The notes: a model not told the origin generated them from the letters alone. DNA of 57,547 bases from Pseudomonadota bacterium (GCA_027485595.1 JAIXQT010000132.1:1-57547), one strand, 5' to 3'; counted from the first letter of the stretch, positions 1,255 to 46,794 are shown. Translations and numbers: made by a program.

Positions 1255-1278
1255 ACGTTTTTCTTCCTATTCGTTTGG

Positions 1279-2830: not shown

Positions 2831-2854
2831 TCTCGTTGAGGCCTGAGCCTTGGC

Positions 2855-3208: not shown

Positions 3209-3309
3209 GATTTGAAACTCCCTCAGTTGTCGGAAAAACTTCGTTTCCGTTTGAACTAACTGTTACGTAACTCTAACTGTAAATAAACAACCCGTACAGA
3301 TGAAAACCG

Positions 3310-4137
3310 CTATGCGTTCACACCAAGTTTACGGCCAATGCGGCTCCAGAGAGATCCAGAGTCAAAAGTTGGAACCGGAACCTGCTCGCCACACACTCGC
3401 GCAGCGATACGGGTAAACGCTTGCCCTGCCTTTGATTTCTGGTTGTATACGACCGGCTCTCCGCAGTTTGCGGCCGAGATTATCTGGTCGTCTCGCTCTA
3501 CGACGCCGATGATCTCAATACCCAAGATGTCCTGGACATCTCGAACTGAAAGCATGTCACCGCGGCGAACCATCTCGAAGTCGATGCGGTTGATGATGAG
3601 CTTAGCCTCGATCCCCTTCGACGAGAGGAGTCCGACCACGCGGTCAGCGTCACGGATAGCGGATACCTCTGGAGTTGTCACCACGATAGCTGACTCAGCA
3701 CCAGCGCACGCGTTGCGGAAGCCCTGCTCGATGCCGGCTGGGGAATCCACGAGGACGTAGTGAAACTCACGTCGGAACTGCTCAAGCACGTACCGAATCT
3801 CTGCCTCATCGACGACATCCTTATCGTCCGTTTGAGAAGCTGGTAAGAGGTAGAGATTGTTTGACTTCTTGGACTTGATGATAGCTTGGGCCGGTTTGCA
3901 GATCTTCTTCGCCACATCCACGACGTTGAAGACGATGCGGTTCTCAAGACCAAGCATCATGTCAAGGTTGCGGAGACCGATGTCGGCGTCGACAACAAGT
4001 ACCCGTTGACCACGGAGGGCAAGAGCCGCGCCGAGGCTAGCGGTAGTCGTTGTTTTTCCAACTCCACCTTTTCCGGAGGTAATTACGATTACCTCGCCGA
4101 GGTCCTTCTTTCCTGCGTTCTCTCTTCGCGTATTCAT
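3310..4137 (-). CDS. minD: septum site-determining ATPase MinD
   Basis: It has a deviant Walker A (ITSGKGGVGKTTTTASLG), the DADIGLRNLD motif and a C-terminal amphipathic helix. It sits between minC and minE. Confidence 0.95.
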   Translation of the reverse strand: MNTRRENAGKKDLGEVIVITSGKGGVGKTTTTASLGAALALRGQRVLVVDADIGLRNLDMMLGLENRIVFNVVDVAKKICKPAQAIIKSKKSNNLYLLPASQTDDKDVVDEAEIRYVLEQFRREFHYVLVDSPAGIEQGFRNACAGAESAIVVTTPEVSAIRDADRVVGLLSSKGIEAKLIINRIDFEMVRRGDMLSVRDVQDILGIEIIGVVERDDQIISAANCGEPVVYNQKSKAGQAFTRIAARVCGEQVPVPTFDSGSLWSRIGRKLGVNA

Positions 4138-4140
4138 CGA

Positions 4141-5073
4141 TTACTCCCTTCTACGTGCCCAAACAGTTCGTGATTGGTAAGGTTCTACAATAATAAGATT
4201 TCCCTCGACTCGGGCGATCTCTGGAATGCCACCGCGAGGGGTGCTCTCGTAATTCTCGGATCCCGCTCCGCGAGAGATGACGAGGCCGATACGAAGCTGC
4301 GTTGGCTGGAGATTGAGGCTGAAGATTACTCGACCTCCGCCGCTTTCATCATAAGCGCCAGCGTGGGCGATTCCACGTAGCGTGCCCAAGATAACGATAT
4401 CACCACCAGCGATTACCTCGGCTCCGGAATTCACATCTCCGAAGACGACGATAGAGTGTTCGGTTTCAACCTTCTGTCCAGAGCGAAGGGTGCCATAAAT
4501 AATGCGGGTATCTGGCTCGTCCCACAGCATAGAGTTAGCAGCGACACTTGAGCGGCTTTCGATGCTATCCATGCCATCGAAGAGGCTCACATTTCTCTCG
4601 GGGGCTGGTGCAGTAATTCGGGTTTGCGAGCTCGTTCGTTGACCAGCGAACATAGAGGTGCTGCTCTCACTTGTCGGCGTCTTAGCGGCGCCTCCCCTGA
4701 GTTTGGAGCTTCGAACGGATACCTTAAATTCGGAAGCCAGAAGAGCAGTAAGATCGTGGACGAGGTCATCGCTTGGCTTACGACCGACCCACTCAAAGGC
4801 CACGTCATTTCCTTGGAGAAATGAGCGGCGCGATTCAAGGAAGTCACGAACCGCAACGGTCAGGTCGTGCTCTTGTACTCGTCCGTCGACTCGAAGAACG
4901 AGTCCCTCAGCGGTGCCACGAGCGGTGATGACGCTACTGCGGGCTTCCCCCTCGTGGTCGTCAACTTTTAAGGGAGAGGTTGAGATTCCTAAACCCGCTA
5001 TCCCCACATTTTCAAGGGGGGAGGCTCCGGCCTCACATCCCACATTGTCGTCATCGTTGAACGAACCAGTCAT
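4141..5073 (-). CDS. minC: septum formation inhibitor MinC
   Basis: The C-terminal beta-helix repeat is GTLRSGQKVETEHSIVVFGDVNSGAEVIAGGDIVILGTLRGIAHAG. It is upstream of minD with a 3-nt gap. The ORF is open to 5250, but the ATG at 5073 has a GGAG 4-5 nt upstream, so the start is uncertain. Confidence 0.8.
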   Translation of the reverse strand: MTGSFNDDDNVGCEAGASPLENVGIAGLGISTSPLKVDDHEGEARSSVITARGTAEGLVLRVDGRVQEHDLTVAVRDFLESRRSFLQGNDVAFEWVGRKPSDDLVHDLTALLASEFKVSVRSSKLRGGAAKTPTSESSTSMFAGQRTSSQTRITAPAPERNVSLFDGMDSIESRSSVAANSMLWDEPDTRIIYGTLRSGQKVETEHSIVVFGDVNSGAEVIAGGDIVILGTLRGIAHAGAYDESGGGRVIFSLNLQPTQLRIGLVISRGAGSENYESTPRGGIPEIARVEGNLIIVEPYQSRTVWARRRE

Positions 5074-5494
5074 AATACTCCAAGAAGCAAGAGGGCGGCA
5101 TTCTAGTGCCGGGATATGAAAAAATCCAGGATAAAAACCGCGCTGAAAAATTCCGACGCGCCCTGAAATGTATTTCATAACGAGTCTCTCGTTGGCCGTG
5201 TGCCATGTATGAGATATTTCACGAATGCTCGCAAAAAACCCCGATGACACATTCCGTGAATCGAGTTACTTTAAGCGACTTATACCAAAGCGACGATCCT
5301 AACGTCAACAAACAAGTTTTGAAAAACCTTGCCGCCGTGAAAAAGAAATCGCGTGTTTTGTTCAAAAAACGCTCGACTTGCTCTTTACTTTTGCGCGCGC
5401 CTTGAGATGTGTTTCGGGCGAGGGAGAAACGGCGGTCGAACGACTGATCATTCGTCGTGTGTTCTCGTCACGTCCGTGGCATAGTTGAGACCGC

Positions 5495-5959
5495 ATGTCT
5501 TCACGATTGGCGTCATTTATTAGCAGTGGGTTCGGAAGTGGGTACGCGCCACAAGCGCCTGGAACGTGTGGCACAGTGGCCGCCGCCGTTGTGTGGATTG
5601 GAATGTCGTGGGCCGGTGCGCTCTCCTCTCCGCTGACGCACATCGCGTTCGCGGTCCTCATAATACTTCTGGGAATGGGCGCAATTCGATTGAGTTTAGC
5701 TGGACTCTCCGCCAAGGATCCCCAGTGGATCGTGATCGATGAGTGGGCGGGGTTGTTTGTCGCCCTTATTGGAGCGGATTCAACAGCTCTCTGGCAGGTT
5801 CTCCTCGCCGTGGTCCTCTTTCGGTTCTTCGATATCTCAAAAGTGGGCCCGATCCGTGTGGCTGAACGACTTCCGGGTGCCGTTGGAATTATGGCCGATG
5901 ATGTTGTGGCGGGGGCTTTCGCGCTGCTTGGAATGGTCGCCGCGAGGTATGTTCTGTGA
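5495..5959 (+). CDS. pgpA: phosphatidylglycerophosphatase A
   Basis: The motifs SGFGSGYAPQAPGTCGTVAA, IVIDEWAG and FRFFDISKVGPI are characteristic PgpA motifs. Confidence 0.85.
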   Translation: MSSRLASFISSGFGSGYAPQAPGTCGTVAAAVVWIGMSWAGALSSPLTHIAFAVLIILLGMGAIRLSLAGLSAKDPQWIVIDEWAGLFVALIGADSTALWQVLLAVVLFRFFDISKVGPIRVAERLPGAVGIMADDVVAGAFALLGMVAARYVL

Positions 5960-7056
5960 TGAATGCTATCGGTTTTGTGAGGCGAGTTCGTCGGTCGTTG
6001 CTCGCGTGCGCGGCTGTGCTCGTGACGGGCGCCGCAGCGTGCTCTCCTGGATATGTTCTTCGCGGTGCATATGAGCAGAGCAAGATACTCCTCGCTCGTC
6101 GGGATATCTCCAGTGTTATCGAGGACCCGTCTACCTCACCGGACAATCGGGAGAAGCTGCGTGTGGTCCTTGAAGCGCGCGAGTTCTCTGAGCGAATAGG
6201 GCTCAATCCCGGGGGGTCGTTTAAGAGCTTCGCCGAGGTTTCTCGTGATCCCCTTGCGTGGGTTGTAGTTGCTTCTCGGCGAGACGCCTTTGCGATGTAT
6301 ACGTGGTGGTTTCCGATAGTTGGTGCCGTGCCCTACAAGGGGTTCTTCGATAAAGGCGACGCTGAGGCGCAAGTAAAGGAGCTTCAAGGCCATGGATTCG
6401 AGGCGTCTATGCGAGGCACCGAGGCTTTTAGTACCCTCGGGTGGTTTGACGATCCAGTGGTTTCAACAACCCTCAAGAATGCCCCAAGCCGAATCGCGAA
6501 CACCGTGATTCACGAGAGTGTGCATACCACTGTATGGATACCGGGCAGCGTTCCCTTTAATGAAAGTCTGGCTAATTTTGTCGGGTCACAGGGGGCTGTC
6601 GCCCTCTTCTCGGAGAGAGTGAAGCGGTGCCGTGAGATGGGGCAGTCGTGTGGGGATGATGAGAAGCGGCTCGCAGCAGCGCAAAGGGAGTACGCGTTTC
6701 AATTTGAGCTTGCGGAGTTAGTGGAAACCCTCTTCGCGTCACTTGAGACACTCTACAATAATCCAGGCCTGACATCTGAGGAGAAGATCGCGCAACGAGG
6801 AAAGGTCTTCGACTCTATAATGCAACCGTTCCGTCAGCGGTTCCCAAACCTTCAGATCCTCAAAGAGGTGAATAACGCGGACATCATTCAATTGAAGCTC
6901 TATCTGTCGAATATCTGGTTGTTTCGAGAACTCTTCATTCGACGCGACCAAGATTGGGGAGCCTTTATGAACGCCATCCGGGAAGTTCAGAAAAAAATGG
7001 AAGATGAGAATTCCTCGGACCCTTTCGCGCTACTTCAAGACATTGTACGAAGGTAA
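5956..7056 (+). CDS. predicted zinc aminopeptidase (putative-aminopeptidase lipoprotein family, COG4324-like)
   Basis: It has a signal/lipobox-like N-terminus (LLACAAVLVTGAAAC). The segments WWFPIVGAVPYKGFFDKGDA...AFSTLGWFDDPV and the HExxH motif (VIHESVHTT) are typical of this family. It overlaps the pgpA stop by 4 nt. Confidence 0.7.
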   Translation: MMNAIGFVRRVRRSLLACAAVLVTGAAACSPGYVLRGAYEQSKILLARRDISSVIEDPSTSPDNREKLRVVLEAREFSERIGLNPGGSFKSFAEVSRDPLAWVVVASRRDAFAMYTWWFPIVGAVPYKGFFDKGDAEAQVKELQGHGFEASMRGTEAFSTLGWFDDPVVSTTLKNAPSRIANTVIHESVHTTVWIPGSVPFNESLANFVGSQGAVALFSERVKRCREMGQSCGDDEKRLAAAQREYAFQFELAELVETLFASLETLYNNPGLTSEEKIAQRGKVFDSIMQPFRQRFPNLQILKEVNNADIIQLKLYLSNIWLFRELFIRRDQDWGAFMNAIREVQKKMEDENSSDPFALLQDIVRR

Positions 7057-7075
7057 ACAAAATCGGAGGGTCAGC

Positions 7076-7999
7076 ATGACTTCATTCGCGGATCGACTTC
7101 AAGCATCAATTCTTTCCTCGCAGAGCGCGCTTGTCGCAGGATGCGACCCCGTACTTGAGAAGCTACCTGCCTTCTTGCTCGACGAGGCGCAACGAACGAC
7201 GAAGAGTGATAGTGAGTTCGTTGAAAGGGCGCTCTCTCGATTTGGCGAGATATTTCTCTCAGCGGTTACGGGAAAGGTCGCCGCCATCAAACCGAACATC
7301 GCCTTCTTCGAACAGTATGGATTGCCCGGATTACACGCGTTCAAACGTCTCTGTGATTCTATTCGAGTGGCGCGCGTGCCGCTTATTATTGACGCGAAGC
7401 GCGGGGATATCGGTTCAACGGCCGCTGCTTACAGCGCCGCGTTTATCAGCGGGGTAACGATTCGTGGTTCTCGACACGTCGCGTTTGAGTGTGATGCTCT
7501 CACGATCAATCCGTTCCTTGGCTTCGACACGCTAGAGCCCTTCGTCTCTGATTGTGAAGAGTACGGCAAAGGTCTTTTTATCCTCCTACAAACCTCAAAT
7601 CCTGGAGCGAAGGATATTCAGGGATTAGAGAGCGAAGGGAAAACGGTGAGTGGTCACGTGGCTGAGTGGCTCGCCGCAAACGCCTCCCGCCTCGAAGGGG
7701 AGTGTGGGTTCTCCGGTTTAGGAGCGGTTGTTGGCGCCTCATATCCTGAGGAAGCCCGAGCCCTCAGAGCGGCACTTCCCTCAACGTTCTTTTTGATGCC
7801 CGGTTTTGGTGCGCAAGGGGCTGGAGCGGATGACGCGACAGCGGGATTCGCAGAGCGTAACGGTTCTCGAGGTGGCGCGCTTGTAAACGTATCGCGTGGG
7901 TTGCTCGAAGGGAGCTCGGATAGTGAGATATCGCTTGAACAGCTTATCTGGTCCAACGTCGAAAAGTTCAACGGTCAGTTGCGACGCGCGCTGGCGTAA
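7076..7999 (+). CDS. pyrF: orotidine 5-prime-phosphate decarboxylase, type 2
   Basis: It has the DAKRGDIGSTAAAY signature and a C-terminal GxGAQG motif (PGFGAQGAG). The ATG at 7076 is preceded by GGAGGG. The ORF track frame opens at 7004. Confidence 0.9.
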   Translation: MTSFADRLQASILSSQSALVAGCDPVLEKLPAFLLDEAQRTTKSDSEFVERALSRFGEIFLSAVTGKVAAIKPNIAFFEQYGLPGLHAFKRLCDSIRVARVPLIIDAKRGDIGSTAAAYSAAFISGVTIRGSRHVAFECDALTINPFLGFDTLEPFVSDCEEYGKGLFILLQTSNPGAKDIQGLESEGKTVSGHVAEWLAANASRLEGECGFSGLGAVVGASYPEEARALRAALPSTFFLMPGFGAQGAGADDATAGFAERNGSRGGALVNVSRGLLEGSSDSEISLEQLIWSNVEKFNGQLRRALA

Positions 8000-8056
8000 C
8001 CTTCGCTACTCCCCACCATACTAGTGGCTCCGGTAGCATGAGGCCGTGAGGAACTC

Positions 8057-8243
8057 TATCAGGGTGGTGAAAAATGATTTCCTGTTGCGCATTTCGATGG
8101 TTTGGCTCCAACCTCGTTGGAGCCAACGAAAAAATCCTCAACGTATCTTCGTGGATACGCCTCCGGTTTTTTCGTCGTCTCCGCCCCGTTTCGCCGAAAC
8201 CCTCACAATGCTCACGACGGAACCATTTTTCACCACCCTGCTA
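8057..8243. mobile_element. MITE-like TA-flanked inverted-repeat element, copy A (long form, 187 bp)
   Basis: The ends read TA|TCAGGGTGGTGAAAAATGATTTCC ... GGAACCATTTTTCACCACCCTGC|TA. The same sequence recurs at 13836, 17557, 19669, 25556 and 28163. The short ORFs predicted inside it (8046..8279 and others) are artefacts of the repeat. Confidence 0.7.
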
Positions 8244-8349
8244 TACGTATCAGCGGGTTGCGCAGGATTTGGCCGGTAGTCGCGAGGCCGCGATGATCCA
8301 GTAGTGGTGAAGCAGGAATAAGAACCTCGAAAGGGGTACTATCTCCCCT

Positions 8350-9912
8350 ATGCTACCACTCTCCTCAGGAGGGCCGAACGCCCCACGAAAGCCAGGCGAA
8401 AACGCCGTACACCAGAAGCCCTCTCAGGGCGATCTCTTCGGCGATCTCTTTGGACCGAACGGGGGCGCTCTCTCTGCGGCGGAGGTTGAGGCCCTTGTTG
8501 TTCCGCCCGGATCGGATCGCTGGGAGCCAGTCCGTGGTGCCGTCTTGCCGGCAGGTGCGGATCCCCTCGTCGGGCGCGCGCGACAGAGCTTTCCCTCGCT
8601 CTCAGAGGATCAGGTTCTTGCGCTGCGAAGTGTATCTGCGTTTATCCGTTGCGCGGACCCGGGCGCTCCACGTGTGTTCGTGGTCGCTGGATACGCCGGA
8701 GTTGGAAAGACCACACTTATGGGTCCGATAGCGGAGTGGTGCAAAGAGAGCATCCTATCGTTTCACCTCCTAGCCTTCACTAACAGCGCGGTGGATACCG
8801 CTCGCGTGAGGAGCCCTCATGTATTCACAAAAGATAACGCTCGCACACTTCACTCTACCCTGTACGGAGCTCCTAAGAACGGGAGCTTCTCTATCGGCGC
8901 TCCACGGCGTGGAAGTCTTGAGGGGGCGCGGGTTGTGTTTGTGGATGAGGCATCGCTTGTGCCATCGGCGGTGATGAGGGATCTCATCGCGGTCGCGCAC
9001 CGCAAGGGGATCAAGGTTGTTATCTTTGGTGATCCCTTTCAGCTGGGCGCGGTTGAAGGGAGCGATTTGCGCCCTTTTGAGCCCCTCAAAACTCCCCACG
9101 TGGCGATGCGTAGGGTGGTGCGTCAGGGGGCGGACTCTGGAGTTTTGCGGCTTGCGACCACGATTCGTGAGGGAGGCAGGGCATGTGCCCCAACGGAGCG
9201 GCTTCCTGACGCTCTGCCAGGTCGAGCGGAGGAGGGGGCATGGCGATTTCCCCGAGCTGACGGTGGGGCACTCGATCTCTTAGTGGCGTTATGGAAGCGG
9301 AACCCCGGTGGGGTTGCCGCAATTGTTGGGGGCAATAAAGAGCGGGTCACGCTCAACGCGGCGGCACGGGAACGGCTGCGCCCAGATCGTGACGGTCCCC
9401 TCTCGGCTCACGAGCCTCTCATGGTGCTCGGAAACACTCACGAGCTCTCTAACGGTGCGCGGATTATGGCGCCGGAGTGGGTGCGACATTCTGAGGTGCA
9501 CAACATCACCTTCAAGCGTTTCGATGAGGGATTTCATCGCGAGGTTGAGGAGCAGGCGTTTGTGATCATCTCCCTCGAGCCTGACCCGGAGACGAATAGG
9601 CGCAGAAAGCTGGTGCTCTTCCCAGAAACCCTTGCGCCCTCGATTGCGCTTATGCCCCTTGTGCTCGCGCAAAAGCTTCCTGAGCTTGAGCGTAGAAAGC
9701 TAGAGGCCTGGTGTCGTGACGCAATTCCAGTGACTCCCTACTACGTTGGTACCTGTCACAAAGCCCAAGGGAAGGAGTGGGAGGAGGTCGTTGTCATCCC
9801 ACCGGGCGCAGACTCAATACTACGCAGAGACCCAACTGCCCTCGGCCGATGGGCGTACACCGCATTTACTCGCGCAAAGATGAGAGTGTACTGCGAAGTG
9901 TCCCCTCGGTGA
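8350..9912 (+). CDS. SF1 DNA helicase, RecD/Dda/TraA-like (AAA_30 plus UvrD_C_2-type architecture)
   Basis: It has Walker A VVAGYAGVGKTTLMG, Walker B VVFVDEASLV and motif III GDPFQLGAV. The C-terminal segment TCHKAQGKEWEEVVVIP...AYTAFTRAKMRVY is also helicase-like. The first ~100 aa look disordered. Confidence 0.8.
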   Translation: MLPLSSGGPNAPRKPGENAVHQKPSQGDLFGDLFGPNGGALSAAEVEALVVPPGSDRWEPVRGAVLPAGADPLVGRARQSFPSLSEDQVLALRSVSAFIRCADPGAPRVFVVAGYAGVGKTTLMGPIAEWCKESILSFHLLAFTNSAVDTARVRSPHVFTKDNARTLHSTLYGAPKNGSFSIGAPRRGSLEGARVVFVDEASLVPSAVMRDLIAVAHRKGIKVVIFGDPFQLGAVEGSDLRPFEPLKTPHVAMRRVVRQGADSGVLRLATTIREGGRACAPTERLPDALPGRAEEGAWRFPRADGGALDLLVALWKRNPGGVAAIVGGNKERVTLNAAARERLRPDRDGPLSAHEPLMVLGNTHELSNGARIMAPEWVRHSEVHNITFKRFDEGFHREVEEQAFVIISLEPDPETNRRRKLVLFPETLAPSIALMPLVLAQKLPELERRKLEAWCRDAIPVTPYYVGTCHKAQGKEWEEVVVIPPGADSILRRDPTALGRWAYTAFTRAKMRVYCEVSPR

Positions 9913-10050
9913 ACGCCATCCATTTTGTTACGCGAGATTCTGGACCGTGCCCCCACGTAGGTGTGTCGCTAGGCACGGTACGAGGGTGTTGTATCCGCTG
10001 GGACCCCAAGGTTTGACATTCCCTCTCCCGTCACGCACGATGGATATCCC

Positions 10051-12144
10051 ATGGGTATTCTTCCTCCTGGCTCCACAAAAGCCGCACCACCTTCATCTCT
10101 AGACGCACCGGTAGGCTCTCTCGTTCAGTACGATGACGACGGAGGCATCCTGCTCGGAGTTATAACCGGCGCGAAGCGGGATAAGTTCACCGTGCTCAAT
10201 GTGAGAGGTCGAGAGGTTGAGCTCGCTCGCCCACGTCTCTACCGATTGCCAAGTGGAACGAGCGTCTCCGGCGCAAGTGTGAGCGCGAAGACTGAAGCGC
10301 TCAACGGTATCTCCAAAAACATTGAGCGTGAAGCGTCGGACCTCAATGTTGAGGAGCTGTGGTCGTTCGTGCACGAGGAGTGCCGAATCTATACAGTGAC
10401 CGAGTTATGTCAAAACTATTTTGGCTCTGACACCCCCGAAAAACATGCTGGACTGCGCATCGCCCTGATCAAGGAGAGGGTGCACTTTAAGCGAGACAAG
10501 GATGGCTTTGAGCCACGTTCAGCCCACGTGGTAAGCGAACTTCGAATTGCCGAAGAGGCAAAAAAACGAAAGGTAACCGCGCGCGAGTCTACCGTTGCCT
10601 GTGTTGTTCAACGCTCCAAGGATCCCGCTGCTGTGATTCCTCACGAGTTAGAGGAGAATTTCGCTCTTATGGGTGAGGTCGCCGCTGGTGTTGCGCACAC
10701 CGACCAATCCCGCCAGAAGGAGGGGAAGGAGCTCACGCATCTTTGTGCTCAGGCGCTTAAACTTTCAGAGAACGCTCCGATCGAAAAGCAAGCCTTCGAC
10801 GTCCTGCTCAAGAGTGGATACTTCACGAAGGATTCAAATCTATCCTTTATTCGTCACGATATTCCAGCGCGCTACTCTCGGGAAGCTCTTGAGGAGGCCG
10901 AAACGTTCGTAGTTCCTTCGACGCTCGCCGACTTTCCTGAGGAGGAGCGGCGCTTGCGGGCAGATTTTACGAGGAAGCACACCTTCACCATCGATGATAT
11001 CTCAACCCAGGACATGGATGACGCCATCTCGATGGAGCGGACCCCTGATGGATACGAGTTGGGGATTCACATCACGGATGTGGCGTGGGCGCTTGCTCCG
11101 GAAAGCGCGCTCGATAGGGAGGCTCGTCGTCGCGCCACCTCGTTGTATTGTGCGGATCAGACTGTAAATATGTTGCCGCGTATCCTGTCGGATATGAAGT
11201 TAAGCCTCCGACAGGGGGAGGTGCGGCCGTCCATCTCAGTTGTTGCCCAGCTCTCGGAACACTTTGAGATCCGTGAATGGACGGTGACCCCCTCTTTTAT
11301 CCGTGTCGCGCAGCGGTACACCTATGATGATGTCGACCTCCTGTTAGAGCATGAGGACGAGACCCTCATGCGGGTCTACCACGCCGCGACCGCGTGCGAG
11401 GAGGAACGTATACGCAAGGGCGCGGTCAGGGTACATCGGCGCGAGGTCGTTCCTTTTGTGGAGGATGATGGATCTATTCGCCTCTTGGAGATAGATGAGG
11501 AGAGCCCCGCTCGTTCGCTTGTCGCCGAGTTGATGGTGCTCGCGAACTCGCTCATGGCGCAGTTTGCGGTACAGCATAACCTCCCCGTTATTTTTCGAGG
11601 CCAGGAGCGGCCCGATGAGAACGCTCGTCAGGCGTTAGTCGATGTCCCGGAGGGGCCAGCCAAGGATTTCACCGCCCGAACAAAACTCAAGAAATCAACT
11701 ATGTCGTTTGAGCCGCACTATCACGCTGGACTTGGACTCGACGCGTACATCCAAGCGACATCGCCGATTAGAAGGTACTTGGATCTGTGTCACCAGCGGC
11801 AGTTTCTCTCGTTTTTTAAGCGCCAACAGCCGTGGATGTCGAAGTCTGAGTTCGAGCCAGTAGCATCGGAGGTTGAGGTTCACCTCAACGCCGCTAATCT
11901 GGCAAGTCGGGAGACCAAACGGTATTGGCTGCTTCGGTACCTTGAGCAGCGCGGTCGGGGCTCTGTCATTACAGGAACCGTTGTGCGTCTCGACACAAAG
12001 TCCCCATTAGTCGAGCTTGATGAGATCTACATCACAGTATTTGTCAAAACGACCAGGCCTGTTCGCATGGGAGAGCAGATCTCGATGAAGGTGGTTACTG
12101 TCGATCCTCACGGGGACTACGTTCGATTAGAGGCTGTGGCGTAA
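10051..12144 (+). CDS. RNase II/RNase R-family 3-prime to 5-prime exoribonuclease (RNB domain)
   Basis: It has the RNB catalytic motifs FTIDDISTQDMDDAIS and ATSPIRRYLDLCHQRQ, plus a C-terminal S1-like segment. Length is 697 aa. Confidence 0.85.
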   Translation: MGILPPGSTKAAPPSSLDAPVGSLVQYDDDGGILLGVITGAKRDKFTVLNVRGREVELARPRLYRLPSGTSVSGASVSAKTEALNGISKNIEREASDLNVEELWSFVHEECRIYTVTELCQNYFGSDTPEKHAGLRIALIKERVHFKRDKDGFEPRSAHVVSELRIAEEAKKRKVTARESTVACVVQRSKDPAAVIPHELEENFALMGEVAAGVAHTDQSRQKEGKELTHLCAQALKLSENAPIEKQAFDVLLKSGYFTKDSNLSFIRHDIPARYSREALEEAETFVVPSTLADFPEEERRLRADFTRKHTFTIDDISTQDMDDAISMERTPDGYELGIHITDVAWALAPESALDREARRRATSLYCADQTVNMLPRILSDMKLSLRQGEVRPSISVVAQLSEHFEIREWTVTPSFIRVAQRYTYDDVDLLLEHEDETLMRVYHAATACEEERIRKGAVRVHRREVVPFVEDDGSIRLLEIDEESPARSLVAELMVLANSLMAQFAVQHNLPVIFRGQERPDENARQALVDVPEGPAKDFTARTKLKKSTMSFEPHYHAGLGLDAYIQATSPIRRYLDLCHQRQFLSFFKRQQPWMSKSEFEPVASEVEVHLNAANLASRETKRYWLLRYLEQRGRGSVITGTVVRLDTKSPLVELDEIYITVFVKTTRPVRMGEQISMKVVTVDPHGDYVRLEAVA

Positions 12145-12158
12145 CGATTGCCGACATC

Positions 12159-12896
12159 ATGAGCTGTCCGTCATACACGCCTCACCGGGTAGTGATATCC
12201 TTGCTCACTATGTATCATCACTATCCCTCACGAGAGGCCGCCGGCCAGGTCCTCGCGGATCTCCTCGCGCGGCATCCCTTCCTCTCACATCCAGTTGTCG
12301 TGGCGCTTCCTCGGGGAGGGGTACCTCTTGGTTTTGAGGTAGCCAGAAGACTTCATGCACCCCTTGATCTCCTCGTGGTGAGAAAGATAGGAGCCCCCGG
12401 TCACGCTGAGTTAGCGTGTGGCGCGTTCATACTGGGTGGAGAGGTCGTCTGGAATACCAGCGTTATGAAGGCCTTGAAGGTTACGCGCGAAGATCTTGAG
12501 GAAACCTATCAAGACGAGGTCGATGAGGCTAAGCAACGAGAGCAGGCGCTGAGGGCGCCGGATAGCCCACCTATCCCTCTCGCCGGCAGGTCCGTTGTCA
12601 TCGTGGATGACGGACTCGCGACGGGCGCGACTATGAAGGCCGCATTTCACGGCGTGCAACGCCAGAATCCACGCGAGGTCGTTGTCGCAATACCCGTTGG
12701 TCCACAGTCTACATGCCGAGAGCTGGAGAAGATGGGGGCATCGCTCGTATGTGACCAGCGTGTAGACGACGCGCATTTCTCAAGTGTGGGTCAATGGTAT
12801 TCCGAATTTCCTCAAGTGCCGACAGAGGAGTGTCGGGAGTTGCTTCTACGAAGTCGGCGAGACCAACGCAGCGAAGGTGCCTCTATCGCCTCATAG
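12159..12896 (+). CDS. phosphoribosyltransferase-domain protein (COG1926-like predicted PRTase)
   Basis: It has the PRPP-binding loop VVIVDDGLATGATMKAA and the N-terminal segment ALPRGGVPLGFEVA. It starts 15 nt after the RNB gene. An alternative start is at Met18 (about 12210). Confidence 0.75.
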   Translation: MSCPSYTPHRVVISLLTMYHHYPSREAAGQVLADLLARHPFLSHPVVVALPRGGVPLGFEVARRLHAPLDLLVVRKIGAPGHAELACGAFILGGEVVWNTSVMKALKVTREDLEETYQDEVDEAKQREQALRAPDSPPIPLAGRSVVIVDDGLATGATMKAAFHGVQRQNPREVVVAIPVGPQSTCRELEKMGASLVCDQRVDDAHFSSVGQWYSEFPQVPTEECRELLLRSRRDQRSEGASIAS

Positions 12897-12970
12897 GATG
12901 GAGCCGATTATGCGTGGATGAAGAGAGAGCAGTAGCGACAGTAATAACCATTCAAAAAAACCTTGGAACG

Positions 12971-13007
12971 AGGGAGCGCAGGATAGAGTTATATCACTGC
13001 GCTCCCT
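12971..13007. terminator. bidirectional terminator-like hairpin between convergent genes
   Basis: AGGGAGCGCAG (15-nt loop) CTGCGCTCCCT forms an 11-bp stem. It is preceded by CAAAAAAACC and followed by TCATTCTTGT. Confidence 0.6.
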
Positions 13008-13023
13008 TCATTCTTGTGGTGTA

Positions 13024-13509: not shown

Positions 13510-13835
13510 CGTGGTGTGCTCTACCGATCTTGCCCACTTCGGGATCGTTCACCGAACAAAAACGCTTTTTGTCGCTACCGCTCCTCGCTTGCTTCATCTG
13601 ACGCAACCAAGGAGCGGTATTGGATTCCTTCTACCCGTATAGAGCTGTGGTCTTATGTTATGACCAGCTCCTAACCATTTGTGTCTTTGAGCGATCGGTT
13701 TAGTTCAAAAAAGACGAGATGTTGGGTGGTTACTGGGCTTAAAGAGGTCTCATCTGTGAACCCGTGGAACCTCAGGGCGCAAAAAAGGAGAGCCCCGGGC
13801 CCTCCTCATATCAGCATTAATCAAGACGTTAGCCC

Positions 13836-14011
13836 TGCCAGGATGGTGAATAATGATTTCCTGTTACGCATTCCGGTAATGCGACTGCACCTTCGTTGAA
13901 GCCGCCACAATATCCTCAACGTATCTGGGTGGATACGCCCCGTCGTCTCCGCGTTGTTTCGTTAAAATACCCGAAATGCTCACGACAGAACCTTTGTTCA
14001 CCAGTGTGTTA
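13836..14011. mobile_element. MITE-like element, copy B (diverged long form)
   Basis: CCAGGATGGTGAATAATGATTTCCTGTTACGC ... ATCCTCAACGTATCTGGGTGGATACGCC ... AGAACCTTTGTTCACCAGTGTGT|TA aligns along its whole length with copy A. Confidence 0.65.
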
Positions 14012-14209
14012 GTGAATCGCCACTTCGCCAGGCAGTTCTTCCTCCGAATCGGTGCACTCGACCTCTTCGCCGTTAAGCTCTTTGCAAAGGTCCGATATCA
14101 TCTCGAAGGCTTTGGCGAGAGAGTTCATCTCGTCGCAGGTAATTTCAAGCATCTCGAAAGCTAACTCCTCGTCGGTCAGTTCTGGCACATCCTTTCTCTC
14201 TTTTGCCAT
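14009..14209 (-). CDS. small acidic hypothetical protein (66 aa)
   Basis: MAKERKDVPELTDEELAFEMLEITCDEMNSL...PGEVAIH. The ATG at 14209 is preceded by AGGAGAG. The TAA stop (14011-14009) is the terminal TA plus one base of MITE copy B. Confidence 0.45.
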   Translation of the reverse strand: MAKERKDVPELTDEELAFEMLEITCDEMNSLAKAFEMISDLCKELNGEEVECTDSEEELPGEVAIH

Positions 14210-17556: not shown

Positions 17557-17593
17557 GATGCTCGGTAGGGAAGCGTTTTTCACCACCCTGCTA
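17557..17593. repeat. solo right end of the MITE-like element (copy D)
   Basis: GATGCTCGGTAGGGAAGCGTTTTTCACCACCCTGC|TA matches the right arm of copy A. Confidence 0.7.
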
Positions 17594-18133
17594 GGGCTTC
17601 ACAGCGCGAATCGCTAGGATTCGTCCCTCATTGTCTTGGTAATCGGTGCCAGTAAGCACTGATTCGTCCGAATCGAAGTGGATGCGGGTGTTTAAGATAT
17701 CCGATCCATCGGTGTCTTTCCATGAGAGCCACATGCCAACGCGCTCTTTATCCATGTACATCGGTCGAAAGGTAAGAGTTTGGCCGTTTGGTAGTCTGAA
17801 GCTCTCCTTCTTCTTTAAAGAGATCTCCTCTTCTTTGCGTGATATCAAATGAAATGTTGAAAATGGGAGGAGGTTTAATTGAGGTTTGAGATCGGCGATG
17901 GCTTCTTCCACAGAGGTCGTCTGTGTCGTGTCGGTGGATGATTGCCGCGGTCCTGTCGCCTGAATGGTCCGAACGACCACCTTCACCTTTGAATGTTCAC
18001 ACGAATCGTCGGCACCGGCCGAGAGGGGGAAAAACCCAAGGACCCCGAGGCTACAAACAGCGACAAGTCGCTTCCAGAATTGAGCTCTCGGTGTGGTCCG
18101 GTACGTCATATCGTCTCTATTTGGCTGTTCCAA
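17591..18133 (-). CDS. secreted hypothetical protein, last gene of the ECF sigma operon
   Basis: 180 aa with a signal peptide (LVAVCSLGVLGFFPLSAGA). It overlaps the anti-sigma gene by 17 nt. Its TAG stop is the terminal CTA of repeat D. Confidence 0.5.
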   Translation of the reverse strand: MEQPNRDDMTYRTTPRAQFWKRLVAVCSLGVLGFFPLSAGADDSCEHSKVKVVVRTIQATGPRQSSTDTTQTTSVEEAIADLKPQLNLLPFSTFHLISRKEEEISLKKKESFRLPNGQTLTFRPMYMDKERVGMWLSWKDTDGSDILNTRIHFDSDESVLTGTDYQDNEGRILAIRAVKP

Positions 18134-19668: not shown

Positions 19669-19902
19669 TGGCACTGTGGTGAACAAAGATCTCCGGTTGC
19701 GCATCGCGCCGGCTTGGGAGGGTTTTGGTTGGGACTTTGAGAAAATCCTTAATGTATCTAGAAGGATATGCAAACCCGTTGAACACGTGCCGAGGTATTC
19801 ACTCGTCTCGGCCCCGCCGCAGCCTTGGCCACATCGGGGCCGTTTTTTCGTGAGCGCAGCCTCGTTTCGCCGCACCTCTCAACCATCTGACCACCCCTAC
19901 TG
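19669..19902. mobile_element. MITE-like element, copy C (diverged, with extra internal sequence)
   Basis: GCACTGTGGTGAACAAAGATCTCCGGTTGCGCATCGCGCC ... AAAATCCTTAATGTATCTAGAAGGATATGC ... CCTCGTTTCGCCGCACCTCTCAACCATCTGACCACCCCTAC aligns with copy A. It sits in the divergent region between the sigma operon and a small ORF. Confidence 0.55.
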
Positions 19903-25252: not shown

Positions 25253-25558
25253 ATGGAGAATCAACAGGTGTCATCATCACAATCTGAAAGCATTCAAAAC
25301 ATACAATGGGCGGGTCGATCGATCTCATCGAAAGTAGAAGGCCTGTCCCCCGATCTTTTTTTGACCGGGGCCGCCGTATCTATAGGGCTGTCGCTGCTCC
25401 TACGCGGTACCGGGCGACACCACGATGCGCAGTTCGTGGGGCAGTGGGCCCCGACACTGTTGTTGCTCGGGCTCTACACTCGAGAAGGACGTGGTCTTCG
25501 AACGGTGGCAGCACGACTACAGTCGGGTGCATCGAGCGAAGAGCGAGGGATGCATTAG
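25253..25558 (+). CDS. small hypothetical membrane protein (101 aa)
   Basis: The ATG at 25253 is preceded by GGAGGAG. It has two hydrophobic segments (LFLTGAAVSIGLSLLL, WAPTLLLLGLY). Its TAG stop (25556-25558) is the TA flank plus the first base of MITE fragment E. Confidence 0.45.
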   Translation: MENQQVSSSQSESIQNIQWAGRSISSKVEGLSPDLFLTGAAVSIGLSLLLRGTGRHHDAQFVGQWAPTLLLLGLYTREGRGLRTVAARLQSGASSEERGMH

Positions 25559-25602
25559 CAGGGTGGTGAAAAATGATCTCCTGTTGCGCCTTTCGATGGT
25601 TT
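25556..25602. repeat. solo left end of the MITE-like element (copy E)
   Basis: TA|GCAGGGTGGTGAAAAATGATCTCCTGTTGCGCCTTTCGATGGTTT matches the left arm of copies A and F. Similarity is lost after about 25602. Confidence 0.7.
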
Positions 25603-25657
25603 GAGGGCACTCGAACCCATTCTTGACGACACGTGACGCCAGTTCTAGTGAAATCCC

Positions 25658-28021: not shown

Positions 28022-28162
28022 AGTGCCCTCCTTAGTCGGTACGGGCCTTACCTCACCACTCTTGTCATAAATACGAAGTGATCGAGGTCATCGTGCGGCA
28101 GGGGCTCGCGTGTCGACTTTTCAGAGCGGCGCAGTATGCACACACACTTTCTGAAGGGGCAG

Positions 28163-28272
28163 TAGCAGGGTGGTGAGAAATGGTTCCGTCTTGAGCATTT
28201 TGAGGGTTTCGGCGAAACGAGGCGGAGACCATCGAAAGGCGCAACAGGAAATCATTTTTCACCACCCTGCTA
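28163..28272. mobile_element. MITE-like element, copy F (110-bp short form, inverted relative to copy A)
   Basis: TA|GCAGGGTGGTGAGAAATGGTTCC...GGAAATCATTTTTCACCACCCTGC|TA. It equals copy A minus an internal segment of about 76 bp. The terminal CTA is the czcA stop codon on the minus strand. Confidence 0.75.
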
Positions 28273-31200
28273 GCGCAACTCTCCCGACGTGGGCAATCGA
28301 CCCCTACGAGCCAACGACGCCATAACCACCGGAAGAACCAGAAGGGTCAGCGCAGTCGCCGAGATGATTCCTCCGATAACCACCGTTGCGAGGGGGCGTT
28401 GCACCTCGCTCCCAGTGCCATGAGAGATCGCCATAGGAACAAAGCCGAGCGAGGCGACGAGCGCAGTCATGAGTACCGGTCGTAATCGTGTAACAGCCCC
28501 CTCGGTGATCGCTTTGAGAGGTGACTCCCCCTGCATCAGGAGCTGCCGAGTAAAGGAAACAAGAACTAATCCGTTGAGCACAGCGACACCTGAGAGCGCG
28601 ATGAACCCAACTGCGGCTGAAATGGAGAACGGAATGCCTCGAGCCCATAAGGCTATGGCGCCACCCGAGAGCGCGAAAGGGATACCAGAGAATACGAGGA
28701 GGGAGTACGTGAGAGATCGAAAGGTGATGACGATAAGTCCAAAGACGCTCACTAAAACGATCGGTACTACTATGAGGAGTCGATGTTTAGCGTTGATCAG
28801 GTTCTCATATTGGCCACCCCACCCGAGCCAGTACCCAGGGGGAAGTTGAATTGAGGTCGCGATTTTAGCCTGCGCCTCCTCGACAAAGGAGCCGAGGTCT
28901 CGATTGCGCACGTTGGCAGTGATAACGATCCGTCGCTTGCCGTTCTCGCGACTGATCTGATTGGGGCCCTGGGTAACGGTGATATCAGCCACTGTTCCAA
29001 GGGGAATAAATGACATCGTTGGCCCCTCAGGCTTGAGCTCAGTTCGAGCGTACTCCATCGAGTGGTAGTGTGGTGCGATATCTGTAGGGATCGGAATAGG
29101 GAGGCTTGAGAGCGCGAGGATGTCGTTTCGCACATTCTCTCCGAGCCGCACCACAATCGGAAAGTTCCGATCGCCCTGGTAGAATCTACTTACCTCTCGC
29201 CCCGCGTATGCGGTTTCCACCACCTCTTGTACATCTTGGCTACTCAAGCCGAGGCGGGCAAGCTTCTCCCGATGTGGCTTCACCTCGACAAGTGGGAGCC
29301 CGGTCACTTGCTCTACCTTCACATCGGAGCTTCCTGGAATCGACGAAAGGATGCTCTCAACTTTCTCTCCGTTGGCGAGGAGCACATCGGTATCATCCCC
29401 GAAAAGCTTAACGGCGACGTCACTACGAACTCCCGCGAGCAGTTCGTTAAACCGCATCTGAATCGGCTGTGTAAACTCATAATTATTGCCGGGAACCTGA
29501 AGCGCGATCTTTTCGAACCTTTCAACGATATCTTGTTTGCTCAAAGAGGGATTCGGCCATTCTGAGCGTGGCTTTAAAACTATATAGCCGTCAGCCACAC
29601 TGGGGGGCATCGGATCGGTGGCTATCTCTGCTGTTCCGATCTTAGCGAATACGTGGTGTACCTCCGGCTCTTTTCGTAGCGCGTCTTCAAGCTGGTACTG
29701 CATCTGAATAGATTGAGTGAGAGATGTTCCGGGAATGCGAAGAGCATGCATCGTGATATCCCCCTCATCGAGTGAGGGAATAAACTCTGAGCCGAGGCGA
29801 AGGAAGACACCGAGCGAGAGAAGAAGGACCGCCGCTGCGCTTACGAACACCGCACGCGGAATCTCAACGAGTCGAGCCAGAAGGGAACGATACCAATTTT
29901 GAATGCGTTCGGTGCGGGATTCGTGCACCGAGGTAGCGTCTCCTCTCACAAATATGGCAACGGCGGCCGGCACAAAAGTAAGTGAGAGGATGAACGCTCC
30001 AACGAGCGCCAGGAGGACTGTGAGCGCCATGGGATGGTACATCTTTCCCTCAATGCCACTGAGGGCCAGAATCGGAACGTACACAACCATAATGATCAGC
30101 TCGCCGAACATCGTCGCTTGGCGCACCTCTGAGGATGCCTTGAATACGACATCCAGACGCTCCTCAGTGGAGAGCGCTCTTTGAAGGCCGCGGCGAGCCT
30201 CCCCGAGCCTCTTAATGCAATTTTCAACGAGGATGACGGCTCCGTCGACGATAAGTCCAAAGTCCAGGGCTCCCAAACTCATGAGATTTGCGCTCAACTT
30301 GCTCTGCACCATGCCGGTAATCGTAAAGAGCATCGTCAGGGGAATAACGAGAGCGGTGACGAGCGCCGCCCGGATGTTTCCGAGCGCGAAGAAGAGGACC
30401 GCTACGACAAGGATCGCTCCCTCGGTGAGGTTTCGCTCAACTGTGGCGATGGTTGCTTGCACAAGATCAGCGCGATTATACACGGTACGCAGCCGAATCC
30501 CCTGAGGAAGGGATCTCTGAACCTCCTCGATCTTTGCGGTTACCTTCTGAGATACCGCCAGGCCGTTCTCACCGATGAGCATGAATACCGTTCCAAGGAC
30601 CACCTCCCGACCGTCTTGGGTCGCGGCGCCTGCTCGAAGCTCAGAGCCCTCAGTGACCATAGCTACCTGTCCGATTCGGACCGGGGTGCCCTCGTGAACA
30701 CTCACGACAAGCTCATCGAGCTCGTGTATGTGGTGCACCTGAGCGGGAACGCGCACGAGAAACTGCTCGCCATTCTTCTCGAAAAATCCAGCGCCAACAT
30801 TCGCGTTGTTCCGTGCTAGGGCAATCTGTATGTCATTCAGCGTCAGCCCATAGGCGCGAAGTTTCTCCAGATCCGGCGTGACAACGATCTGCTTTGACTC
30901 CCCGCCGATCGCGTTCACCTCGACGACCCCGGGGATAGTCATGAGTTGAGGTCGAACGACCCAATCCTGAATCTCCCGCAGCTCTTGAAGATTATGATGG
31001 ACAGGGGCGTTGGGCTCCTCCTCGACGACAAACATGTAGATCTCGCCGAGGCCGGTCGCGATCGGACCCATGGTCGGACTGATTCCGGCGGGCAATCGAT
31101 CCTTGGACTCTTGTAGTCGCTGCGCGATGAGCTGACGGGCGAAGTAAATGTCGGTGCCATCCTTGAAAACTACCGTGACCTGCGAGAGCCCATATCGAGA

Positions 31201-46722: not shown

Positions 46723-46794
46723 ATTTTCAGCACGTGAAAAAATCCTCATTGTATCTTGGCGGATACACCAGAGGTTTTTTCACGCACTGAAAAT
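46723..46794. repeat. stand-alone copy (G) of the inner palindromic module of the MITE long form
   Basis: ATTTTCAGCACGTGAAAAAATCCTCATTGTATCttggcgGATACACCAGAGGTTTTTTCACGCACTGAAAAT is a long imperfect hairpin. Its core is homologous to 8126-8175 of copy A. Confidence 0.65.

What the first reader, a model, noticed from the sequence alone, without database searches (positions are those of the whole stretch)
8057..8243. TA-flanked inverted-repeat (MITE-like) element family present 6 times in 57 kb, with no transposase in the window
Six loci share long stretches of near-identical sequence.
- A 8057-8243 is a 187-bp long form.
- B 13836-14011 and C 19669-19902 are diverged long forms.
- F 28163-28272 is a 110-bp short form in the opposite orientation.
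- D 17557-17593 is a solo right end and E 25556-25602 is a solo left end.

Intact ends read TA|GCAGGGTGGTGAAAAATGATTTCC ... GGAACCATTTTTCACCACCCTGC|TA. That is roughly 24-bp terminal inverted repeats bracketed by TA. All copies are intergenic and differ by indels and substitutions, as expected for decaying non-autonomous elements.

TA-flanked TIR elements are the hallmark of MITEs derived from IS630/Tc1-mariner. I do not recognise this TIR as a named family. This copy density in a mostly housekeeping region is unusual.
Basis: seen in the sequence. Interest (0 to 1): 0.75.

Follow-up and report, generated by a model that had tools for sequence, protein, structure and literature searches.

The report
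IS5-derived miniature transposon (MITE) family
The repeated 181-bp sequence is a small non-coding transposon derived from IS5-type insertion sequences, not from IS630/mariner; it inserts at YTAR sites, often exactly on gene stop codons, and is an ordinary though unnamed member of a known class.

Summary
The repeats are real. The terminal 18-mer occurs 7 times in the window against 0.02 expected, and all six listed loci hold up. A seventh partial locus lies at 46729-46781.

The element runs CAGGG...CCCTG (181 bp) and is flanked by a 4-bp direct duplication, YTAR (CTAG > TTAG/CTAA), not by TA. Empty alleles in relatives carry a single copy of the 4-mer at sites A, B, E and F.

The terminal 15-16 nt (CAGGGTGGTGAAAAA) and the YTAR duplication match 1.3-1.4-kb IS5-family insertion sequences found in other genomes and metagenomes. 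These encode a DUF772 + DDE_Tnp_1 transposase that passes NCBIfam transpos_IS5_4. The named relative ISPst12 has ends CAGGCCGTTGAAAAA and a TTAG duplication. The element is therefore an IS5-derived MITE, not an IS630/Tc1-mariner derivative.

- The 110-bp "short form" is a 77-bp deletion in place; the sister strain has a full copy at that site.
- Four of six window copies sit on the stop codon of a gene, and the duplication preserves the stop.
- No transposase is present in the window or in related loci, so the autonomous partner in this lineage was not found.
- Rfam and the literature search gave no name for the family.

Verdict: a new member of a known kind, of modest interest.

The parts
8056..8059 (.). 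Left target-site duplication of copy A (CTAT)
   Evidence: Read directly. It is identical to 8241-8244. The sister strain (L105) has a single TTAT at the empty site.
8060..8240 (+). Copy A: full-length 181-bp MITE, used as the reference orientation. It comprises the left inverted repeat (~8060-8107), hairpin GGCTCCAAC/GTTGGAGCC (8103-8125), the central module (8127-8174) and the right inverted repeat (~8193-8240).
   Evidence: nhmmer covers model positions 1-181 with E = 1e-62. It is 91-92% identical to copies in other MAGs. The site is empty in L105. Predicted fold energy is -78.5 / -89.8 kcal/mol, z = -8.6 / -10.
8241..8244 (.). Right target-site duplication of copy A (CTAT)
   Evidence: Read directly.
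13829..14012 (+). Copy B with its TTAG duplications (13829-13832 and 14009-14012). It is an old, diverged copy (element about 13833-14008) with 6 extra bases, CCCTGC, before the left terminus. The right TTAG contains the TAA stop of a 67-aa minus-strand gene.
   Evidence: L106 and L107 have a single TTAG with no element. The orthologous copy in L123 is 79.2% identical, the same as the flanking DNA at 79.7%.
17557..17594 (+). Copy D: truncated right-end fragment (17557-17590) plus CTAG (17591-17594). That CTAG supplies the TAG stop of the minus-strand ORF 17591-18133.
   Evidence: The site is empty in L123 (TTAC), L106 (CTAA) and L125.
19672..19900 (+). Copy C: diverged copy with an internal insertion and deletion, 30 bp upstream of the ECF sigma-factor gene (18837-19640, minus strand).
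   Evidence: nhmmer covers model positions 5-129 with E = 1e-10. It is present in the sister strain L123. The corresponding interval in L125 is about 240 bp shorter, but the L125 alignment is too diverged to read a duplication.
25555..25609 (+). Copy E: TTAG (25555-25558) plus the left-end fragment (25559-25609). The TAG within TTAG is the stop of a small conserved protein (ORF 25238-25558).
   Evidence: Orthologous proteins in L125 and L126 end at the same residue with CTAG or CTAA and no element.
28162..28273 (-). Copy F: element 28166-28269 carrying a 77-bp internal deletion, flanked by GTAG (28162-28165; CTAG in the sister strain) and CTAG (28270-28273). The latter contains the TAG stop of the CusA/CzcA gene (28270-31455, minus strand).
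   Evidence: L123 has the full 181-bp copy with CTAG/CTAG. L126 has a single CTAG with no element.
46729..46781 (+). A lone copy of the central module (83% identical to 8128-8173), embedded in a 78-bp palindrome (ATTTTCAG...CTGAAAAT) without the MITE termini.
   Evidence: (family D3), and (E = 3e-6).

Best explanation
The repeats belong to a 181-bp non-autonomous DNA transposon (MITE) derived from an IS5-family (IS5-group) insertion sequence.

**Anatomy (shown).**
- Both termini read CAGGGTGGTGAAAAATG. The inverted repeat continues imperfectly to about 48 nt.
- The interior is a set of small palindromes, including a 48-nt central module.
- There is no coding capacity.

**Mechanism (inferred).**
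- An IS5-type DDE transposase encoded elsewhere binds the CAGGGTGGTGAAAAA ends.
- It inserts the element at a YTAR tetranucleotide, with CTAG preferred, and that tetranucleotide is duplicated.
- YTAR contains TAG or TAA. The duplication leaves an intact copy next to the gene, so an insertion exactly on a stop codon does not change the protein. Such insertions are tolerated and accumulate.

**After insertion (shown).** Copies decay in place. Copy F lost 77 bp internally, D and E are truncated, and B and C have drifted by substitution.
For: **The duplication is 4 bp.**
- Of 41 element ends in the window and related loci, 29 are preceded by YTAR: CTAG 19, TTAG 6, CTAA 4.
- All elements with a non-palindromic flank show perfect 4-bp direct repeats: CTAT/CTAT, TTAG/TTAG three times, CTAA/CTAA.

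**Empty alleles hold one copy of the 4-mer.**
- Site A in L105.
- Site B in L106 and L107.
- Site F in L126.
- Site E in L125 and L126.
- Site D is empty in L123, L106 and L125.

**Full-length IS elements share the ends.**
- L079 is 1301 bp. Its 373-aa ORF matches Pfam DUF772 + DDE_Tnp_1 and NCBIfam NF033581 transpos_IS5_4 at 266 bits against a cut-off of 140.
- L076 is a decayed 1376-bp copy in a Bdellovibrionota MAG.
- Twelve metagenomic elements of 1313-1374 bp have intact transposase homologues and YTAR flanks.
- Named relative ISPst12 has ends CAGGCCGTTGAAAAA with a TTAG duplication. A Methylomonas IS5 has CAGGCTGGTGAAAAAC.

**Literature.** IS5 duplicates 5'-YTAR-3' (PMC5009759). A probable IS5-derived bacterial MITE that is actively mobilised (MITEPsy1) is already described (PMC3189936).

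**Distribution and conservation.**
- Copies in the MAGs JBDLRS01 and CAIVDM01 are 95-98% identical to each other and 91-92% identical to window A. Orthologous coding DNA between the window and CAIVDM01 is 68-72% identical.
- No copy was found in about 98 kb from relatives at 74-78% nucleotide identity.

**Stop codons.** B, D, E and F have their duplication on a gene stop, and the protein C-termini are unchanged. Four of six insertions fall on the 15 stop-containing sites among the window's 301 YTAR sites, P about 9e-5.
Against: - No IS5 transposase gene was found in the window or in about 300 kb of related loci.
- None of the 14 full-length IS elements recovered shares the MITE's sequence beyond the terminal 15-16 nt. 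The autonomous partner in this lineage is unidentified, and trans-mobilisation is inferred, not shown.
- Some duplications are imperfect by one base (L048 TTAG/CTAG, L002 CGAG/CTAG, window F GTAG/CTAG).
- The empty alleles at A and D lie at boundaries between DNA segments of different divergence. These polymorphisms may therefore have arrived by recombination rather than by recent transposition.
- The stop-codon enrichment is only modest against non-coding sites (P about 0.02), and the gene calls behind it are rough.
Confidence: 0.88

Rival explanations
1. One reading: a MITE derived from IS630/Tc1-mariner. It would have roughly 24-bp inverted repeats starting GCAGGG and would duplicate a TA target.
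For: - TA is always present next to the ends, because it is the core of YTAR.
- IS630 itself prefers CTAG (from my own knowledge, not tested here).
- The terminus loosely resembles Tc1 ends, CAGTGCTGGCCAAAAAGAT (from memory, not tested).
Against: - Under this model the base after the left TA and the base before the right TA would be complementary element bases. They are instead identical in direct orientation wherever they vary: CTAT/CTAT, TTAG/TTAG, CTAA/CTAA.
- Empty sites contain the whole 4-mer once.
- The IS elements that carry the same termini encode IS5-family transposases, not IS630 ones.
Confidence: 0.03
2. A conserved structured RNA or gene-end signal, such as a terminator or an mRNA-stabilising hairpin. 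Its copies would be maintained by selection rather than by transposition, or the MITE would have been taken over for that role.
For: - The element has a very stable predicted fold on both strands, z = -8.6 and -10.
- Four of six window copies lie immediately after stop codons.
- One weak terminator-like hairpin with a T-run lies in the central module on the minus strand.
- The whole 181 bp, not only the ends, is conserved between genomes.
Against: - There is no Rfam match at gathering thresholds, and nothing below E = 1.
- The RNAalifold covariation term is unfavourable at +3.65.
- A strong fold is expected of any inverted-repeat element.
- Copies occur in both orientations relative to the adjacent gene.
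- Orthologous B copies have diverged as much as the flanking DNA, 79.2% against 79.7%.
- Copies are truncated or internally deleted without replacement.
- Relatives do without the element at the same gene ends.
Confidence: 0.07
3. A REP/BIME-type palindromic repeat spread by a RAYT (IS200/IS605-like) enzyme, or another repeat that does not move as a transposon.
For: The repeat is intergenic, palindromic and multi-copy.
Against: - It has defined termini with a 4-bp target duplication and clean empty sites.
- At 181 bp it is far longer than REP units of about 20-40 bp (REP size from my own knowledge).
- Its termini match IS5-family elements.
- No RAYT-like gene was seen in the window.
Confidence: 0.02

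Closest known systems
IS5-group insertion sequences of the IS5 family: ISPst12, ISDisp1, and the unnamed elements L079, L076 and L130-L141
   Same: - The terminal inverted repeat is CAGGGTGGTGAAAAA, identical for 15-16 nt in L079, L076 and the metagenomic elements. Fourteen of 15 positions match a Methylomonas IS5 and 11 of 15 match ISPst12.
- The target duplication is 4 bp, YTAR (PMC5009759).
   Different: - The window element is 181 bp and has no transposase gene.
- Its interior, with palindromes and a central module, is unrelated to the interiors of those IS elements.
- Similarity stops after the terminal 15-17 nt.
MITEPsy1 of Pseudomonas syringae, a 100-nt MITE listed as probably IS5-derived (PMC3189936)
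   Same: It is a bacterial non-autonomous element with short inverted repeats, attributed to IS5-family transposases and shown there to be mobilised.
   Different: - The host, length (100 against 181 nt) and sequence are different.
- No sequence comparison was run here.
Correia elements (CREE/NEMIS) of Neisseria
   Same: They are 100-160-bp inverted-repeat elements, abundant, intergenic and often at gene ends, with no transposase known in the host.
   Different: - Correia elements duplicate TA, whereas this family duplicates 4 bp (YTAR).
- The termini differ in sequence (from memory, not tested here).
- Correia elements have documented promoter, IHF-binding and RNase III functions. None was shown here.
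Tourist-like MITEs / PIF-Harbinger of eukaryotes
   Same: They are MITEs mobilised by transposases of the IS5-related superfamily, with TA-centred target duplications (from my own knowledge).
   Different: They are eukaryotic, have a 3-bp TAA/TTA duplication, and have unrelated sequence.

Membership tests
MITE (non-autonomous inverted-repeat transposon) | Small size (under about 300 bp) with no coding capacity | tested here: met
   The full copy is 181 bp, which leaves no room for a transposase. The ORFs overlapping copies are flanking genes that end in the duplication.
MITE (non-autonomous inverted-repeat transposon) | Terminal inverted repeats | tested here: met
   The 17-nt ends CAGGGTGGTGAAAAATG are perfect, and the repeat extends imperfectly to about 48 nt.
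MITE (non-autonomous inverted-repeat transposon) | Target-site duplication, with empty sites holding one copy | tested here: met
   4-bp YTAR duplications flank the copies. Empty alleles were found at A, B, E and F, and D is absent in three relatives.
MITE (non-autonomous inverted-repeat transposon) | Many copies, at different sites in different genomes | tested here: met
   There are 7 loci in the 57-kb window. Copies occur in at least 6 MAG assemblies at unrelated flanks, and many lie at contig ends.
MITE (non-autonomous inverted-repeat transposon) | An autonomous element with the same ends in the same genome or lineage | tested here: inconclusive
   IS5-family elements with the same terminal 15-16 nt exist in other organisms, including a Bdellovibrionota MAG. 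None was found in the window or in related loci. The complete genome was not available.
IS5 family, IS5 group (as the source of the MITE) | 4-bp duplication of a YTAR target | tested here: met
   The defining motif is taken from PMC5009759.
IS5 family, IS5 group (as the source of the MITE) | Termini shared with elements that encode an IS5-family DDE transposase | tested here: met
   The L079 transposase matches NF033581 at 266 bits (cut-off 140) and Pfam DUF772 + DDE_Tnp_1. The same termini occur in L076 and L130-L141. ISPst12 and a Methylomonas IS5 have close variants of these termini.
IS5 family, IS5 group (as the source of the MITE) | Mobilisation by an IS5-family transposase | not testable with these tools
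   This needs a transposition assay or a complete genome containing the partner element.
IS630/Tc1-mariner-derived MITE | 2-bp TA target duplication | tested here: not met
   The duplication is 4 bp. Non-palindromic cases (CTAT, TTAG, CTAA) are repeated in full, and empty sites hold the 4-mer once.
IS630/Tc1-mariner-derived MITE | Termini shared with an IS630-family element | not tested
   No IS630 element was compared. All full-length elements recovered with these termini encode IS5-family transposases.
Described RNA family (Rfam) | Match to a covariance model at its gathering score | tested here: not met
   There were 0 matches in the whole window. The best sub-threshold E-value on copy A is 1.2.
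REP/BIME | Short (about 20-40 nt) imperfect palindromes without target duplication, linked to a RAYT gene | tested here: not met
   The unit is 181 bp with a 4-bp duplication. No RAYT-like ORF was found in the window.

The most novel reading that the evidence does not exclude
The element may be more than a selfish transposon. Its precise placement on stop codons and the conservation of all 181 bp across genomes whose genes are only about 70% identical could mean it has been taken over as a portable gene-end module, such as a bidirectional terminator or an RNA-stabilising hairpin.

The 48-nt central module (an A-run, a hairpin and a T-run) would be the functional unit. It also occurs in a second MITE backbone with different termini (L123:12357-12546) and alone at window 46729-46781.
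Probability: 0.08. Interest if true: 0.5.

Novelty: new member of a known kind. Interest (0 to 1): 0.3.

Why it matters
- **Annotation.** The family marks many gene ends and breaks assemblies in this uncultured freshwater lineage, whose MAGs are labelled delta proteobacterium, Pseudomonadota or Bdellovibrionales. Several copies lie at contig ends. Recognising it prevents it from being mistaken for an RNA gene or an IS630 relic.
- **Neutral insertion sites.** It gives a clean example of how a YTAR-targeting transposon finds neutral landing sites. The duplicated tetranucleotide contains the stop codon, so insertion exactly at a gene's end leaves the protein unchanged.
- **Strain markers.** Filled, empty and deleted alleles between strains about 98% identical are useful markers, and they point to recent genome flux.
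- None of this changes the current understanding of transposons.

Tried and rejected
- **Rfam.** The whole window at gathering thresholds gave nothing. Lax scans of copy A and of 19900-21110 gave only chance-level matches or none.
- **Plasmid collection.** blastn of copy A found only a 22-nt chance match.
- **IMG/VR.** A scan for the terminus gave 14 single hits; none was detected as a family copy by the nhmmer profile.
- **L082 and L044.** In both, the terminus is followed by unrelated sequence, so I examined them as possible full-length IS ends. Both are truncated solo ends next to ordinary genes.
- **A tblastx match** extending 60 nt beyond copy A into L090 proved spurious on alignment.
- **Inverted terminus pairs 0.3-3.5 kb apart.** This search found IS elements only in unrelated organisms.
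- **Gapped metagenome scan** (terminus, 320-350 nt, then the FRWF motif). It returned 12 IS5 elements, but none shares the MITE's subterminal sequence.
- **tblastn with an IS5 transposase** against the window and all related loci gave no hit.
- **Literature.** Searches for the terminus sequence and for MITEs in Bdellovibrionota found nothing relevant.
- **RNA covariation.** The test on 12 copies gave no support for a selected structure.
- **The TA/IS630 model** was considered first and rejected on the 4-bp duplications.
- **First look-up of the pyrF product** failed, probably because the start codon I chose was wrong.

Full report
**Observation**

The 18-mer GCAGGGTGGTGAAAAATG (up to 3 mismatches) occurs 7 times in the window, against 0.02 expected from shuffles. 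The repeat finder groups the listed loci into families. An nhmmer profile built from nine full-length copies recovers all of them:
- A at 8060-8240, full length, E = 1e-62.
- B at 13839-14003.
- C at 19676-19816.
- D, ending at 17590.
- E at 25559-25609.
- F at 28166-28269, on the minus strand.

Forty ORFs scanned against NCBIfam and Pfam are housekeeping or transport genes, and none is a transposase.

**Copies elsewhere**

A scan of one genome per species for the terminus returned mostly chance hits, such as a conserved coding stretch shared by about a dozen gammaproteobacterial genomes. It also returned true family members in several uncultured MAGs:
- JBDLRS01, labelled "Pseudomonadota bacterium", with at least 11 loci.
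- CAIXKI01 and CAIVDM01, labelled "uncultured delta proteobacterium", from lakes Loclat and Erken.
- JAIXPR01 and JALRCK01.
- CAZZLV01, labelled "Bdellovibrionales".

In these MAGs the element is a very uniform 181-bp unit, and many copies sit at contig ends.

Copies in JBDLRS01 and CAIVDM01 are 95-98% identical to one another and 91-92% identical to window copy A. The one orthologous gene shared by the window and CAIVDM01 is only 68-72% identical at the DNA level. By contrast, about 98 kb of syntenic DNA from closer relatives (74-78% nucleotide identity; L106-L108, L125-L127) contains no copy. A patchy distribution combined with high sequence identity is the pattern of a mobile element.

**Boundaries and target duplication**

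Aligning copies with their flanks shows that conservation starts at CAGGG and ends at CCCTG. The four bases outside each end form a direct repeat.

| Copy | Left / right 4-mer |
|---|---|
| window A | CTAT / CTAT |
| window B | TTAG / TTAG |
| L017 | TTAG / TTAG |
| L050 | TTAG / TTAG |
| L052 | CTAA / CTAA |
| L031 | CTAG / CTAG |
| L090 | CTAG / CTAG |
| L123 copy F | CTAG / CTAG |

A few copies differ by one base.

The non-palindromic cases settle the question. Under a TA-duplication model, the bases next to TA would be element bases and would be complementary between the two ends. They are instead identical in direct orientation. Of 41 ends, 29 are preceded by YTAR: CTAG 19, TTAG 6, CTAA 4.

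**Empty sites**

I fetched orthologous loci through homologues of two window proteins.

| Site | Filled allele | Empty allele |
|---|---|---|
| A | window AACT-CTAT-[element]-CTAT-ACGTATC | sister strain L105 (98% identical) AACT-TTAT-AGGTATC |
| B | window ...gacg-TTAG-[element]-TTAG-tgaatcg | L106 and L107, a single TTAG before tgaa |
| F | window and L123 | L126, a single CTAG that contains the CusA stop |
| E | window TTAG | L125 (CTAG) and L126 (CTAA); protein ends ...EMH* in all |
| D | window | absent from L123, L106 (CTAA) and L125 |

The element therefore inserts with a 4-bp duplication of YTAR.

**Source family**

IS5 is known to duplicate 5'-YTAR-3' (PMC5009759). I looked among the fetched loci for inverted pairs of the terminus 0.3-3.5 kb apart and found two full-length insertion sequences:
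- L079 (Oceanococcus) is 1301 bp with ends CAGGGTGGTGAAAAAC. Its 373-aa ORF matches Pfam DUF772 + DDE_Tnp_1 and NCBIfam NF033581 "IS5 family transposase" at 266 bits against a cut-off of 140.
- L076 (a Bdellovibrionota MAG) is 1376 bp with the same ends. It carries a decayed homologue of the same transposase.

A tblastn search of the plasmid collection found named relatives:
- ISPst12 has ends CAGGCCGTTGAAAAA and a TTAG duplication.
- A Methylomonas IS5 has ends CAGGCTGGTGAAAAAC flanked by ATAG on both sides.

A gapped metagenome scan (terminus, then 320-350 nt, then the conserved FRWF motif) returned 12 more elements. They are 1313-1374 bp, have uninterrupted transposase homologues, and are flanked by CTAG, TTAA or TTAG.

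Both the terminus and the duplication therefore place the 181-bp element with the IS5 group, not with IS630/Tc1-mariner. A probable IS5-derived bacterial MITE that moves, MITEPsy1, has already been described (PMC3189936).

**What was not found**

None of these IS elements shares sequence with the MITE beyond the terminal 15-17 nt. No IS5 transposase is encoded in the window or in the related loci held. The autonomous partner in this lineage, and trans-mobilisation itself, are therefore inferred.

**Decay and turnover**

- The sister strain (L123) carries a full 181-bp copy at site F. The window's 110-bp "short form" is that copy with a 77-bp internal deletion between short AC repeats.
- E is a 51-nt left end in both strains. 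L123 has an additional 192-bp insert there. That insert is a second MITE type with ends AACTGGTCTCAAAAGTA and a CTAG duplication, and it carries the same central module.
- The orthologous B copies in the two strains are 79.2% identical. This matches the surrounding divergent segment at 79.7%, so old copies drift like neutral DNA.
- One caveat applies. Divergence between the two strains is mosaic: 98.2%, then 93.2%, then 79.7%, then 98.6%, with breakpoints at sites A and D. Those presence/absence differences may have come in with recombined segments rather than from very recent jumps.

**Stop codons**

The duplications of B, D, E and F each contain the TAG or TAA stop of a gene:
- B: a 67-aa gene.
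- D: ORF 17591-18133.
- E: a conserved protein of about 101 aa.
- F: CusA/CzcA.

The protein ends are the same in filled and empty alleles. In the related MAG loci, several more ends close ORFs of 60-440 codons.

In the window, 15 of 301 YTAR sites contain a called stop, yet 4 of 6 insertions do. This gives P about 9e-5 against all sites and about 0.02 against sites not buried in coding sequence, using rough gene calls. Target choice plus selection is sufficient to explain this: the copy of the duplication next to the gene keeps the stop intact.

**RNA alternative**

The element folds strongly on either strand, z = -8.6 and -10, as any inverted-repeat element must. Several results argue against a selected RNA:
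- Rfam gives nothing.
- The covariation term across 12 copies is unfavourable.
- Copies lie in both orientations and are freely truncated.

One weak terminator-like hairpin with a T-run lies in the central module. A secondary gene-end role therefore cannot be excluded, but nothing here requires it.

**Verdict**

- The family appears to be unnamed. Rfam has no match, and the literature held has no hit for the terminus sequence or for MITEs in this phylum. ISfinder could not be queried.
- It is a new member of a well-known kind, of modest interest.

Noticed in passing
window 20373-20652: A conserved non-coding stretch between copy C and the 984-aa gene. It matches L052:3104-3251 (MAG JBDLRS01) at 75-88%, higher than the 68-72% coding-DNA identity measured for another MITE-bearing MAG (CAIVDM01). 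It contains a 30-nt inverted repeat (20547-20576 / 20623-20652) and repeated CGTGAACGT-like motifs, which also occur at 2695-2714. Rfam gives no match even at E <= 1.
   Followed up: partly
window 1-20609 compared with L105 and L123: Divergence from the sister strain is mosaic: 98.2% (1-8017), 93.2% (8242-13401), 79.7% (13400-17480) and 98.6% (17592-20609). The breakpoints fall at MITE sites A and D. This suggests recombination tracts that end at, or were delimited by, the elements.
   Followed up: partly
L123:12357-12546 (window equivalent about 25642): A second MITE type of 192 bp, with 17-nt ends AACTGGTCTCAAAAGTA and a CTAG duplication. It carries the same 48-nt central module in reverse orientation. 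It is absent from the window, apparently through a deletion between CCAG repeats.
   Followed up: partly
window 46720-46800: A copy of the central module alone, inside a 78-bp palindrome (ATTTTCAGCACGTGAAAAAA...TTTTTTCACGCACTGAAAAT). It has no MITE termini and no obvious target duplication.
   Followed up: no
window 26815-26871 and 46659-46684: A perfect 23-nt inverted repeat, GGGAAGCGAGGCAAAACCTACCC / GGGTAGGTTTTGCCTCGCTTCCC, with a related arm 20 kb away. It may be another small repeat family or a shared terminator.
   Followed up: no
L005, L047, L065, L072, L074, L095 (MAG CALOBG01, Gammaproteobacteria): A separate multi-copy repeat with the same terminal head (GCAGGGTGGTGAAAAACGTAGCGAGGAA...) in an unrelated MAG. 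It is probably another non-autonomous derivative of the same IS5 clade.
   Followed up: no
L062:153-400 (MAG JAIXPR01): A MITE copy carrying a 67-bp nested insertion in its centre, which makes it 248 bp long.
   Followed up: no
window 13833-13838: Copy B has six extra bases, CCCTGC, between its left TTAG duplication and the CAGG terminus. The L123 copy reads CCCTCG at the same place. They may be the last bases of an earlier element that was otherwise deleted.
   Followed up: no
window 12862-14054 compared with L106:12831-13162: Apart from copy B, the window has about 680 bp here that the 77%-identity relative lacks, including ORF 13024-13509 (161 aa, no family match). Conversely, L106 and L107 have a gene of about 970 aa between the phosphoribosyltransferase gene and the ABC transporter that the window lacks.
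   Followed up: no
window 42000-46100: The lowest-GC part of the window (0.507). It holds an ORF6N-domain protein (42705-43229), a DUF6559 protein (44420-44872) and several ORFs with no family match. It may be a small accessory island.
   Followed up: no
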